NCBI RefSeq assembly: GCF_001677475.2
Contig: NZ_CP015229.1
Direction: 5' to 3' (one strand)
DNA: 64,000 bases
Source: Escherichia coli
GTDB taxonomy: Bacteria; Pseudomonadota; Gammaproteobacteria; Enterobacterales; Enterobacteriaceae
The position numbers were made by a program. The number at the start of each line of letters is the position of its first letter. Position 1 is the stretch's first letter. Of this stretch, positions 40,801 through 43,800 are shown one piece after another.

Positions 40801-43800
40801 TGTAGTGTACTCGCAATTTCAGGTCTCTGGCGTTTATTCTGGTGCAAAGGAGGTATGTGATGAAAACTTTGCTACCATGCCATTAAATGCGACCAATATC
40901 GGATTATCCATCAGTTGCTTGTTGTAGATTTCATTGGTTATAAAAATGCAAGGTGTAAAAGATGAAATTTATAATTATTAGTTAAGTAGCTAGTTTTATA
41001 GTAATTTAGACAATAGGATGTATGGAAAAATGGAAAAAGTTTATGATACCACTAGAATTAGTAATCTTGCTAACGACCCGAAACAGTTTTGTTCTTTTTT
41101 TTGTGAGTACATAAAAAGAGATGATATTAGTATAGATATCGCCTTGGCTGTGCTGAGAATATCTTCCATCTATTATAATAGATTTTCAGTTCAGACTGAA
41201 GTTGAGTATAACAATACATTCAAAAAATGTATTAATGAGCTAGTAAACTCATTTCCTGATAACATTGAACTAATCTCTGAGTTCGAGAGTCAATGTAAAA
41301 TTATGCATGATATAAATAATTCTTTCTTTGCGGCTACAAAATGTGCTGGTATTTGGCGTAAAAATACAAACAAATCACATGCATTAATACTTAATCTCAT
41401 CATGTTTTGTGAGATGTTTTTATCATCATTATCATCCTTGGTTGTGGTCAATGATCCTAAAAAAATGAAGAGGATTTTTCCATTATTTATCGTTTCTGAA
41501 AATATTAATATTCATGCTGAACCTGATATCGAATATTTTCGAGTTATCGATAGGGCATTTGATGAGGTAGCCAATTACACCGGAAGAATATTTTCTTATT
41601 TACGGACTCATGGGCCATTGAAACTAACTTCTTGTGTGAATAAACAAACCTTGCTTTCAATGGGAGGGTACCTTAATGAGTGGAATGTTTTTGACTCATT
41701 AAGCAGAGTAAGAGACTTTTTCAGACTAAGTAGTGCAGTATTTACAAAATTGGATAATAACATTTACTCTCTTGAGGTTGATAGTTTTTGTTTATACCGA
41801 GATTATGAGATTGCAAGAAATAGACTGATGATGAGAGCGTCACATCTATATAGCGAAGTTCATGAATTTAGTAACAAACATTTTCATCTAAATAGTTGGG
41901 TAAAGGATCATATGCCATCTTACTTAAATTCTGATGGCGTTTTTAGCTCATTTCATCTAAGCGAGTTGGAAAATATGTCTCCTGATGACCTTCATGAAGA
42001 ATATGGGAATATATCATTATTTAATTGGGTGCACGCTTATCAATGTTTAGTCGAGTTATCTAAAGAAGAAATGAGCAAAAGATTTTCATCGACAAAACCT
42101 ATACCCCTACAGTTGGATCGCTGGCTGATCATAAAAAGCCGTGAGAGTTGGTTATCATTCTTTCAACGTAAGGGGATTGCAGCAGATGCAGCAAAAAAAC
42201 TGATAGATTATTTTACCTTCAATTCAAAATCACATGATCTTAATGATTGCCCATTTATTCCCTGTATGGACGGTTTATGCTTAATGCCTGCATTAATAGC
42301 AAATAGCTCAGTGACTCGCTCTCTAATGTCATTATTTGGTTCCAAAAAAATTTCTCAAGCAAGTAAAGGGCGATTTCATGAGCAACAATTTATAAAACAA
42401 GTTCGTGATGCGGGGATTAAAGCTTCTCCAATTGATGCTCATGCTAATTATCAGTGCGATTGCGTGATTCTCCTGGATGATTGTTTGATTTTTACAGAAC
42501 TAAAATCAAATGGTCAACCAATATATTATGGTAAGTACTATCAGCAAGTGTGTAACATCGTTGGAGATAGCTCATTAATACATGATCATAATAATAAATT
42601 TATGCGTTCTTATTTTCAACAAATAAATCGAATTTCTGAACATTATCTTAATCATCTTGATGTGATCATTAAAGAATTCGAACTACCATCAACATGGCAA
42701 CCCAAAGGTGTGTATAAGCTTATTGTTACTACAACTATGCTCGGTGGGAAATATCATGTGGATGATACATATGTAGCGGACAAATATGCATTATCTGGTT
42801 TTTTTCAACGAATACCTGGAGTGATATATCAAACAAATGAAAATGGAAAAATGGCGAAAAATATCATTGATGGGTTTGAGTGTTGCGAAGGGGAAATCAC
42901 TATCGATAAGTTTATAGATTATCTTTCCTCTTTGCCCAGTATTAATGCTGTACGTAAAAATATAAAAAAATTAACTTATAGTGTTCGATTTAATGAAAAA
43001 TTAGTCCATCATCCTTATTATGATTCTTGGGATTTTGGCCCATATATTCGTAAGGGAAATGATTAGAGCAATTTATTATATAGTCCATGTTATTCACTGA
43101 TTATATTATTGATAATATAATCAGTGAATAACTCTAATTTTTTTAATGTTGGAGTTTAGCCTGAAGTTGAAATTGGTACTACGGAACGGTATGATCATAT
43201 CGCATCAAAATATCAAGGTAGTGATGATTTTCTACGCACCGATCCAGAAACGTGGATTTTATCATCACCTTAAGCAATGGCAGCGACAACACCATCAATT
43301 TCTATATCAAAGGTGGTGAAATAAATTAGAAAATTGTTTATTTAATCCATTAGCGATAAGTTTTATTGTTATTTAGCCGAGATATATTCCATTGAAAAAA
43401 GTAAATTGGCACTGATATTATATCAAATGGGAATAATCCTTTTGTAAATAAGCTGAGGAATGTGTTAATTCACATCCAGCGCCTTATAAACCGCATCAAC
43501 CGGTTCTGAGTAAAAACTTACCTGAAAGTTGGTAAACAACTCTGCCGGAACTGTTGGAATATCCATAGCCGAGGATATCGGCAACAGAACTCGTTTTGCG
43601 CCGCTATCGAAGGCGAGTTGTAAACTAGCGGCAAGATCCTGCACTGATTATGTCAGCAATATTGAACATACTGCGATAGTTATCAACCTCACCCCCTAAA
43701 AACCTCTTTCCGATGCCACTCCACAAATCCCTCATAAGGGTAATTTTTACGTACCTGCGGCAAAGCAATAGTTTTCCCGTCAAAATCCCAGAATAGTTTC

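What the first reader, a model, noticed from the sequence alone, without database searches (positions are those of the whole stretch)
43089..43144. Unusually long, perfect AT-rich hairpin after the orphan ORF
A 21-bp perfect inverted repeat with a 2-nt loop followed by a T-run sits 23 nt after the stop of the 682-aa ORF. It is far longer than typical intrinsic terminator stems. It could be a terminator, or an insulating or recombinogenic palindrome marking a cassette boundary.
Basis: seen in the sequence. Interest (0 to 1): 0.3.

Follow-up and report, generated by a model that had tools for sequence, protein, structure and literature searches.

The report
Junction palindrome behind orphan nuclease gene
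A real, single-copy 44-bp perfect palindrome sits exactly on the seam where a horizontally acquired orphan nuclease gene was joined to the wreck of an older phage-defence locus in E. coli; it probably acts as a makeshift, non-canonical transcription stop and visibly flips its centre during DNA replication, but it is a local curiosity, not a new kind of element.

Summary
Window 43089-43109 and 43112-43132 form a perfect 21-bp inverted repeat with spacer TG, 22 nt after the stop of the 682-aa ORF. A T7 run follows 5 nt later. Shuffled controls give stems of 6-11 bp.

The window is the E. coli leuX defence hot spot. The palindrome occurs once per genome in 339 of 5,426 E. coli genomes, always at this locus. 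It is absent from every homologous cassette in other genera, from plasmids and from Rfam.

It lies on a recombination joint. Homology to the Salmonella copy of the orphan gene stops at 43084. From about 43137 rightwards the sequence is the decayed start of a phospholipase-D gene, followed by a brxL (BREX) remnant. The T-run therefore comes from dead coding sequence, not from an imported terminator.

The DNA is active as a palindrome. The spacer is exactly inverted (TG to CA) in two unrelated strains, and there are other centre and repeat-unit variants.

As a terminator it is non-canonical: 4 G-C pairs, a displaced U-tract and a negative classical score.

Best reading: a junction palindrome kept perfect by template switching, which doubles as a leaky stop or 3'-end hairpin. 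Interest is low to moderate.

The parts
43089..43109 (.). Left arm of the perfect palindrome (GTTATTCACTGATTATATTAT). It ends in two ATTAT units.
43110..43111 (.). 2-nt spacer TG. It is found as CA (an exact inversion, twice independently) and as TA in other E. coli.
43112..43132 (.). Right arm (ATAATATAATCAGTGAATAAC). It begins with (ATAAT)2, which is expanded to 3 units in two loci.
43133..43137 (+). 5-nt linker TCTAA between the stem and the T-run. It makes the hairpin plus U-tract geometry non-canonical.
43138..43144 (+). T7 run (7-9 T in other strains). It is homologous to the 'TKNN' codons of the phospholipase-D gene on the other strand, so it was inherited from a pseudogene.
41018..43066 (+). 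Orphan 682-aa ORF (RefSeq start 12 nt further in, 678 aa). It has no Pfam family, an invariant D481...E494-x-K496 motif and a confidently modelled alpha-beta-beta-beta-alpha-beta core. It is probably a PD-(D/E)xK nuclease. The family is rare and occurs as single-gene inserts.
43067..43084 (+). Last 18 nt that still align with the Salmonella copy of the cassette. This is the left edge of the junction.
43137..43366 (-). Decayed 5' part (about 77 codons) of a phospholipase-D/HKD gene. The start codon is lost, and there are two frameshifts and an in-frame stop. It is truncated at the palindrome.
43330..43678 (-). Remnant of the 3' end of brxL (the BREX Lon-like protease; coding part about 43465-43678) plus its downstream spacer.
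43689..44618 (-). Phosphorothioated-DNA restriction endonuclease gene (NF045808, HNH), convergent with the orphan ORF. It is the conserved right anchor of the hot spot.
40256..40340 (+). tRNA-Leu(CAA) leuX, the integration hot spot. In strains that carry a pathogenicity island, homology resumes at 40317-40323.

Best explanation
What is shown. The 44-bp palindrome is a lineage-specific, single-copy junction element. It occupies the roughly 50 nt that join a horizontally acquired orphan-nuclease gene to the truncated start of a dead phospholipase-D gene. That dead gene belonged to a decayed BREX locus at the E. coli leuX defence hot spot. The T7 run after the hairpin is part of the dead gene, so hairpin plus U-run exists only because of this joint. 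The 2-nt spacer has been exactly inverted at least twice in nature, and (ATAAT) units in the right arm slip.

What is inferred at the DNA level. The repeat behaves as a template-switch substrate. During replication the nascent strand copies the opposite arm. This keeps the arms identical and occasionally flips the spacer. The palindrome probably arose as an inverted duplication, or arrived as a short foreign segment, when the joint was made.

What is inferred at the RNA level. Transcripts of the orphan gene fold a 20-bp, -23 kcal/mol hairpin 22 nt after the stop codon. Together with the nearby U7, this acts as a leaky, non-canonical intrinsic stop and 3'-end hairpin. It limits read-through into the antisense strand of the convergent restriction gene. 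Because the stem is a perfect A/U-rich helix of about two turns, it is also a likely RNase III substrate.
For: Reality and uniqueness:
- The repeat is real and far beyond chance.
- It occurs at one locus per genome in 339 of 5,426 E. coli genomes, always together with the ORF and the pseudogene spacer.
- It has no real match in plasmids, only chance 17-mer matches in viral contigs, and no Rfam hit.

Junction map:
- Homology to the Salmonella cassette covers 42902-43084.
- The N-terminal 62 residues of the phospholipase-D protein match 43366 to 43182 across three frames.
- DNA homology extends to 43137, with 0 of 200 shuffles scoring as well.
- Intact phospholipase-D genes sit next to brxL in other E. 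coli.
- The brxL remnant was identified.

DNA-level activity:
- TG to CA occurs in strains N17 and HB37. HB37 flanks are identical over 3.4 kb to TG-type loci and differ from N17 at 21 sites, so the two flips are independent.
- TG to TA occurs in L023, and +5-nt unit expansions occur in L003 and L072.
- Spacer inversion and arm homogenisation by template switching are documented mechanisms (PMC8604942, PMC5941160).

RNA level:
- The element lies 22 nt after the stop codon. The stable hairpin is followed by U7 on the + strand only. The pattern scan lists it as terminator-like.
Against: - No transcript data were available, so termination is not shown.
- Classical terminator criteria are not met. 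The U-run starts 5 nt after the stem, only 4 of 21 pairs are G-C, and a d'Aubenton-Carafa-type score (formula recalled from memory) is -25, against +13 for the leuX terminator. Published terminator motifs place the U-tract directly against a G-C stem base.
- There is no homologous hairpin behind the gene in six other lineages, and their 3' flanks are not exceptionally structured (z from -0.06 to -2.5).
- Three of about 34 sampled loci carry uncompensated arm changes (L040, L003, L072). The arms hold 1 segregating substitution where the flanks predict 1.6-3.0, so purifying selection on the structure is not demonstrated.
- The origin of the 50-nt filler could not be traced to either flank. Anchored alignments were no better than shuffles.
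Confidence: 0.55

Rival explanations
1. Neutral scar. The palindrome is only a by-product of the illegitimate recombination that made the joint (a fold-back or inverted duplication). It persists because it is young, harmless at 44 bp and self-homogenising. It has no role in transcription.
For: - It lies exactly at the junction, and its T-run is borrowed.
- It is absent from all homologous cassettes.
- There is no excess conservation of the arms, and arm variants are uncompensated.
- The terminator score is negative.
Against: Any transcript leaving the ORF must contain a -23 kcal/mol hairpin followed by U7, which is unlikely to be without effect. About 98% of the 339 genomes keep the intact form.
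Confidence: 0.3
2. Canonical, strong Rho-independent terminator that travelled with the orphan gene as part of its cassette.
For: It has the right position and strand. It is a stable hairpin with a nearby T7 and a G-C pair at the stem base.
Against: - The T-run belongs to the phospholipase-D remnant.
- A 5-nt linker separates stem and T-run, and the score is -25.
- The stem is about three times the E. coli average of 7-8 bp (PMC10325885).
- The palindrome is not present behind any homologue.
Confidence: 0.1
3. RNase III processing site, working by retroregulation in the manner of lambda sib. The perfect 20-bp A/U-rich helix is cut, the 3' end is exposed, and the mRNA of the potentially toxic nuclease is destabilised.
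For: The helix is an uninterrupted 20-21 bp, about two turns. That such helices are RNase III substrates is established knowledge and was not tested here.
Against: There are no cleavage data, no conservation in homologues, and no sign of selection on the stem.
Confidence: 0.1
4. DNA-level protein site or promoter pair. The palindrome carries TTCACT-17 nt-TATAAT on both strands. It could fire divergent transcripts (one antisense to the ORF) or bind a dimeric regulator.
For: The promoter scan gives 10 of 12 matches on each strand.
Against: - Promoter-like hits are not enriched in this AT-rich region: 19 found against 16.7 expected.
- The half-site motif is not enriched in the window or upstream of the ORF: 8 matches against 4.65 expected.
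- No regulator gene lies in the islet.
Confidence: 0.05
5. End or target of a mobile element or site-specific recombinase: a MITE, abutted IS ends, an integron attC, a Xer dif-like site or a protelomerase tel site.
For: The repeat is perfect with a 2-nt spacer, and it lies at a segment boundary.
Against: - It is a single copy in 339 genomes and absent elsewhere.
- Breakpoints of the variable region are staggered and lie 545 bp away.
- No recombinase or transposase gene is adjacent.
- The sequence lacks the attC core sites and bulges, and it lacks central dyad symmetry.
Confidence: 0.02

Closest known systems
Rho-independent (intrinsic) terminators, including the 'extraordinarily long-stem' class (TerR of pLS20, 15 bp; PMC10325885)
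   Same: A stable hairpin lies just after a stop codon with a U-run downstream. The long stem recalls terminators that resist antitermination.
   Different: The stem is 20-21 bp with only 4 G-C pairs. The U-run is separated from the stem by 5 nt and derives from a pseudogene. The classical score is negative. Activity was not measured.
Quasipalindrome / short inverted-repeat template-switch hot spots (Ripley model; E. coli thyA; yeast spacer inversions, PMC8604942; proteobacterial inverted repeats, PMC5941160)
   Same: The arms are perfect, the spacer is short, the spacer has been exactly inverted repeatedly, and the perfect form predominates.
   Different: The arms are much longer (21 bp, against a mean of 5.75 bp for perfect inverted repeats in E. 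coli non-coding DNA). The element is intergenic, and it lies on a rearrangement joint.
Lambda sib/tI retroregulation site (RNase III-cleaved extended hairpin 3' of int)
   Same: A long, near-perfect RNA helix sits immediately 3' of a gene on a mobile or acquired segment.
   Different: There is no evidence of alternative read-through and terminated forms, or of cleavage.
yeeN 3'-flank hairpin of the E. coli and Salmonella core genome (L018 7237-7285)
   Same: It is an AT-rich perfect palindrome of up to 20 bp that abuts a stop codon, without an adjacent U-tract on the sense strand.
   Different: It is conserved across genera with a compensatory C-G to G-C swap and is present in 5,411 E. coli genomes. 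The palindrome studied here is confined to one lineage of one locus.
Dispersed bacterial palindromes (REP/BIME, ERIC, MITEs)
   Same: It is an intergenic hairpin-forming repeat.
   Different: It is a single copy, AT-rich, and has no family members anywhere searched.

Membership tests
Intrinsic (Rho-independent) terminator | Stable RNA hairpin shortly downstream of a stop codon on the sense strand | tested here: met
   -23.2 kcal/mol, 22 nt after the stop codon
Intrinsic (Rho-independent) terminator | U-tract (about 7 nt) directly abutting a G-C-rich stem base | tested here: not met
   U7 starts 5 nt after the stem. The stem base is G-C followed by five A-U pairs. The score is -25 against +13 for the leuX terminator.
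Intrinsic (Rho-independent) terminator | RNA 3' ends mapped at the U-tract / measured termination | not testable with these tools
   No transcriptome data were available.
Inverted-repeat template-switch hot spot | Inverted repeat with a short spacer that shows spacer inversion or arm homogenisation among close relatives | tested here: met
   TG to CA occurs in N17 and HB37 on unrelated flanks. The mechanism is described.
Inverted-repeat template-switch hot spot | Arm mutations corrected to keep symmetry (compensated changes) | tested here: inconclusive
   Only three arm variants were seen, all uncompensated and rare. There is too little divergence to judge.
Dispersed repeat (REP/ERIC/MITE) | Many copies per genome | tested here: not met
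   One locus per genome in 339 genomes. No real matches in plasmids or viral contigs.
Cassette-boundary recombination site (attC-, dif- or tel-like) | The same site recurs at the edges of homologous cassettes, with a cognate recombinase nearby | tested here: not met
   Absent from six homologous cassettes. Annotated neighbours include no recombinase. The variable-region edge is at 43677-43684.
RNase III substrate (sib-like) | Uninterrupted double-stranded RNA helix of about 20 bp | tested here: met
   20-21 perfect pairs
RNase III substrate (sib-like) | rnc-dependent cleavage | not testable with these tools
   An experiment is required.
Known RNA family (Rfam) | Match to a curated covariance model | tested here: not met
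   No match at E <= 1 in 40300-44000

The most novel reading that the evidence does not exclude
A transcription stop or insulator was born de novo at a recombination joint. The hairpin was created by an inverted duplication when the orphan nuclease gene was spliced onto a dying BREX/phospholipase-D locus. Its U-tract was recruited from lysine/asparagine codons of the dead gene; a G-to-T change lengthened T5-6 to T7. Replication template switching keeps the stem perfect. A more speculative variant is that the cruciform-prone palindrome is a substrate or decoy for the adjacent PD-(D/E)xK nuclease.
Probability: 0.2. Interest if true: 0.4.

Novelty: new member of a known kind. Interest (0 to 1): 0.25.

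Why it matters
This is a clean natural example of three things in one 44-bp element:
- how gene turnover in a bacterial defence hot spot leaves seams;
- how a usable 3'-end signal can be assembled from a rearrangement scar plus pseudogene sequence;
- how template switching at a long perfect inverted repeat produces recurrent, exactly reversible 2-nt 'mutations' that would mislead SNP-based phylogenies.

It does not reveal a new mechanism or system. Its practical value is as an annotation caveat and as a possible natural reporter for spacer inversion.

Tried and rejected
- Rfam scan of 40300-44000 at E <= 1 found nothing.
- Dispersed-repeat idea: BLAST of the 81-mer against 5,426 E. coli genomes found one locus only. 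Plasmids gave only chance AT-rich hits. Viral contigs gave 4 copies of the same E. coli locus plus 23 unrelated single 17-mers.
- A third half-site at 43642 or 43410: the motif count is not above shuffles, 8 against 4.65.
- Conservation in homologous cassettes: Salmonella, Izhakiella, Xenorhabdus, Pectobacterium, Pantoea and a metagenomic relative lack the palindrome, and their 3' flanks are not exceptionally structured. The genome-collection scan found only 2 loci.
- Tracing either arm to the Salmonella 3' UTR or to the phospholipase-D gene: anchored alignments were no better than shuffles, at 209/300, 225/300 and 172/300.
- The 20-bp perfect palindrome near the Salmonella homologue looked like a parallel. 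It turned out to be the conserved 3' flank of the core gene yeeN.
- Structure of the orphan protein: the model is poor (pLDDT 56), and Foldseek gave no significant hit, only sub-threshold PD-(D/E)xK nucleases such as McrC and Hjc. PDB sequence profile, Pfam, NCBIfam and PADLOC searches gave nothing significant.

Full report
**Observation.** The sequence at 43089-43144 is as described. GTTATTCACTGATTATATTAT (43089-43109) and ATAATATAATCAGTGAATAAC (43112-43132) are perfectly complementary over 21 nt, with a 2-nt spacer TG. The ORF 41018-43066 ends in TAG at 43064-43066, so 22 nt separate stop and stem. The T7 run is at 43138-43144. It begins 5 nt (TCTAA) after the stem rather than abutting it. 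As RNA the 44-mer folds into 20 bp plus a 4-nt loop at -23.2 kcal/mol (z = -8.1). As single-stranded DNA it folds at -16.3 kcal/mol. It is the longest perfect hairpin in the window, and the next has 13 bp. In 300 dinucleotide-preserving shuffles of the AT-rich islet the maximum stem was 6-11 bp.

**Context.** The window is E. coli chromosome, 99% identical to many RefSeq genomes. The gene order is ahr, tRNA-Leu(CAA) leuX (40256-40340), an AT-rich islet (GC 0.30-0.38 against about 0.52), then a phosphorothioated-DNA restriction endonuclease gene on the minus strand (43689-44618; NF045808, HNH), then nanS/nanM/nanC and fim. In other strains the segment left of that endonuclease gene carries McrBC, type I R-M, Zorya II or island remnants. 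Their breakpoints are staggered at about 43677-43684 or, in one strain, about 43721. This is therefore a defence-gene hot spot. In strains with a pathogenicity island at leuX, homology to the window resumes at 40317-40323, the tRNA 3' end.

**The orphan ORF.**
- It has no Pfam or NCBIfam family and only a marginal PADLOC hit.
- Homologues are few: E. coli, Salmonella (75% identity), and single genomes of Izhakiella, Xenorhabdus, Pectobacterium and Pantoea plus one metagenomic contig (41-56%). Each is a single-gene insert in a different neighbourhood.
- A scan of 100,044 species representatives found two loci, one of them an E. coli contig mis-binned in a Lachnospiraceae MAG.
- The alignment has an invariant D481...E494-L-K496 motif.
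- Relatives give weak NERD and DUF4143 hits.
- The AlphaFold model is poor overall (pLDDT 56), but the part around the motif is confident and has an alpha-beta-beta-beta-alpha-beta order.
- The top, non-significant Foldseek matches are PD-(D/E)xK nucleases such as McrC and Hjc.
- A PD-(D/E)xK nuclease of unknown role is the best guess.

**Distribution of the palindrome.**
- An 81-nt query finds it in 339 of 5,426 E. coli genomes, at one locus each. The two 'places' per genome are the two strands.
- The same 339 genomes carry the 540-bp spacer to its right. 332 carry at least 80% of the 4-kb block; exceptions include IS insertions in the ORF, as.
- It has no real match in 72,556 plasmids.
- A scan of viral contigs for a 17-nt arm returned four copies of the same E. 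coli locus and 23 unrelated single hits without a partner arm.
- Rfam has nothing.
- It is not a dispersed repeat, a mobile-element end or a known RNA.

**It is absent from homologous cassettes.** In Salmonella, DNA homology runs through the coding 3' end and stops at window 43084, 5 nt before the left arm. Only a weak 10-bp hairpin follows there. The other five lineages have unrelated 3' flanks whose folding is not exceptional (z from -0.06 to -2.5, against -4.8 for the window in the same 110-nt frame). A 20-bp perfect AT-rich palindrome lies 190 nt downstream in Salmonella and looked like a parallel. It is in fact the conserved 3' flank of the core gene yeeN, present in 5,411 E. coli genomes and carrying a compensatory C-G to G-C swap between the two genera.

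**What lies to the right.**
- Window 43330-43678 is 81-83% identical to the 3' end of brxL (the BREX Lon-like protease) and its downstream spacer on plasmids.
- Window 43366 to 43182 on the minus strand encodes, across three frames, residues 1-62 of a phospholipase-D/HKD protein. The start codon is lost and there is an in-frame stop. The protein is intact in a Salmonella contig (L043) and in about 118 E. coli genomes, where it sits directly downstream of brxL.
- DNA homology to that gene continues to 43137, with score 10 and 0 of 200 shuffles as good. There the intact genes read TATTGTTTTT and the window reads TAATTTTTTT.
- The T7 run is therefore inherited from the 'TKNN' codons of a dead gene.
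- The 50 nt at 43085-43134, which are essentially the palindrome, match neither flank's relatives better than shuffled sequence.
- The palindrome thus sits precisely on the joint between the orphan-gene segment and a truncated BREX/phospholipase-D remnant. All 339 genomes share this one joint.

**Natural variation.** About 34 distinct loci were read: RefSeq, metagenomic and IMG/VR.
- The flanks have 3.9% (coding) and 7.2% (pseudogene) segregating sites.
- The 42 arm positions have one substitution (L040, T to A at 43091, uncompensated), against 1.6-3.0 expected.
- There are two independent +5-nt expansions of the right-arm (ATAAT)2 repeat (L003, L072).
- The 2-nt spacer shows TG to TA once (L023). 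It shows TG to CA, its exact reverse complement, in N17 and HB37, the only 2 of 339 RefSeq genomes with that form.
- HB37's 3.4 kb of flanks are identical to TG-type loci L028 and L038 and differ from N17 at 21 sites, so the flip happened at least twice.
- Exact spacer inversion and arm homogenisation are the documented products of polymerase template switching between inverted-repeat arms (PMC8604942, PMC5941160).
- These data show DNA-level palindrome activity. They do not show selection for the structure.

**Terminator assessment.**
- In favour: position and strand; a stable hairpin; a U7 downstream on the + strand only (the minus-strand tail is AUGGACUAUAUAAUA); and a listing by the simple pattern scan.
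- Against: the stem is 20-21 bp, whereas E. coli terminators average 7-8 bp and more than 14 bp counts as 'extraordinary' (PMC10325885).
- Against: only 4 pairs are G-C, and the U-tract is displaced by 5 nt. Strong sites have the U-tract directly after a G-C stem base (bioRxiv 2026.05.29.728758; PMC10325885).
- Against: a d'Aubenton-Carafa-type discriminant (formula recalled from memory) gives -25 on the + strand and -54 on the - strand, against +13 for the leuX terminator.
- I therefore expect at most partial, non-canonical termination or a 3'-end hairpin. By established knowledge, an uninterrupted A/U-rich helix of about two turns is also a plausible RNase III substrate, as at lambda sib. 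None of this could be tested here.

**Other readings.**
- The palindrome contains TTCACT-17 nt-TATAAT on both strands. However, promoter-like hits are not enriched in this AT-rich DNA (19 against 16.7 expected), and the half-site is not repeated near the ORF's promoter.
- attC, dif and tel sites are excluded. The element is single-copy, no recombinase is adjacent, no extrahelical bases are present, and the centre is not symmetric.

**Conclusion.** The element is a real, lineage-specific junction palindrome at the leuX defence hot spot. It was probably created or captured when the orphan nuclease gene replaced most of a BREX/phospholipase-D locus. Template switching keeps it perfect and occasionally flips its centre. 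It most likely serves as a makeshift, leaky transcription stop or 3'-end hairpin, with a U-tract borrowed from a pseudogene. It is a new instance of known kinds (long inverted repeat, template-switch hot spot, non-canonical terminator-like hairpin) and of modest interest.

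Noticed in passing
window 43137-43678 (- strand): The 'empty' 540-bp spacer is the wreck of a BREX locus. 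It holds the last ~70 codons (~43465-43678) of brxL plus its downstream spacer, then the first ~77 codons of a phospholipase-D/HKD gene with a lost start codon, two frameshifts and a stop. RefSeq annotates only a 'peptidase/hypothetical' fragment there.
   Followed up: yes
window 41018-43066: The orphan 682-aa protein has an invariant D481...E494-x-K496 motif and a confidently modelled alpha-beta-beta-beta-alpha-beta core. It is probably a PD-(D/E)xK nuclease. The family is very rare and always occurs as a single-gene insert in a different neighbourhood (next to TA modules, T6SS effectors, an ICE). It is a candidate single-gene defence system absent from PADLOC and Pfam.
   Followed up: partly
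L018 7237-7285; L075 ~415-465: The core gene yeeN is followed immediately by an AT-rich palindrome: a perfect 20-bp one in Salmonella and a shorter one in E. coli K-12. The stem carries a compensatory C-G to G-C swap between the genera, and there is no U-tract on the sense strand. It is present in 5,411 of 5,426 E. coli genomes.
   Followed up: partly
window 44619-44772 versus L004 5602-6174: The window (like APEC O1 and HB37) lacks the ~650-bp HNH endonuclease gene that lies between the phosphorothioate-dependent restriction gene and nanS in strains N17 and NRZ14408. Some genomes annotate only a remnant.
   Followed up: partly
window 43689-44618 and loci L013-L015: The phosphorothioated-DNA restriction endonuclease gene matches in 4,882 of 5,426 E. 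coli genomes. It is the fixed right anchor of a hot spot whose left neighbour varies (McrBC, type I R-M, type II Zorya, BREX remnants). The breakpoints are staggered within a few nt of its stop codon.
   Followed up: partly
L016 (SFGN01000178.1): A 4.2-kb contig binned as a Lachnospiraceae MAG is 98% identical to this E. coli locus, palindrome included. This is evidently bin contamination.
   Followed up: no
protein cluster P0084 (Salmonella): 13 of the 15 listed members of this 2,989-member cluster of the Salmonella homologue are 'partial' proteins of many different lengths. Assemblies seem to break inside this AT-rich gene.
   Followed up: no
L008 6044-6130 and L009 6056-6150: The Xenorhabdus and Pectobacterium homologues share a conserved 3' block (TATTCG..., ACTAATTCATCG, ACTAAATT) that can form a long imperfect hairpin. 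It is unrelated in sequence to the E. coli palindrome and is not statistically exceptional (z = -0.06 and -1.8).
   Followed up: partly
window 43146-43319 (+ strand): The 57-aa ORF that starts right after the T-run is antisense to the phospholipase-D pseudogene and has no family match. It is most likely not a gene.
   Followed up: partly
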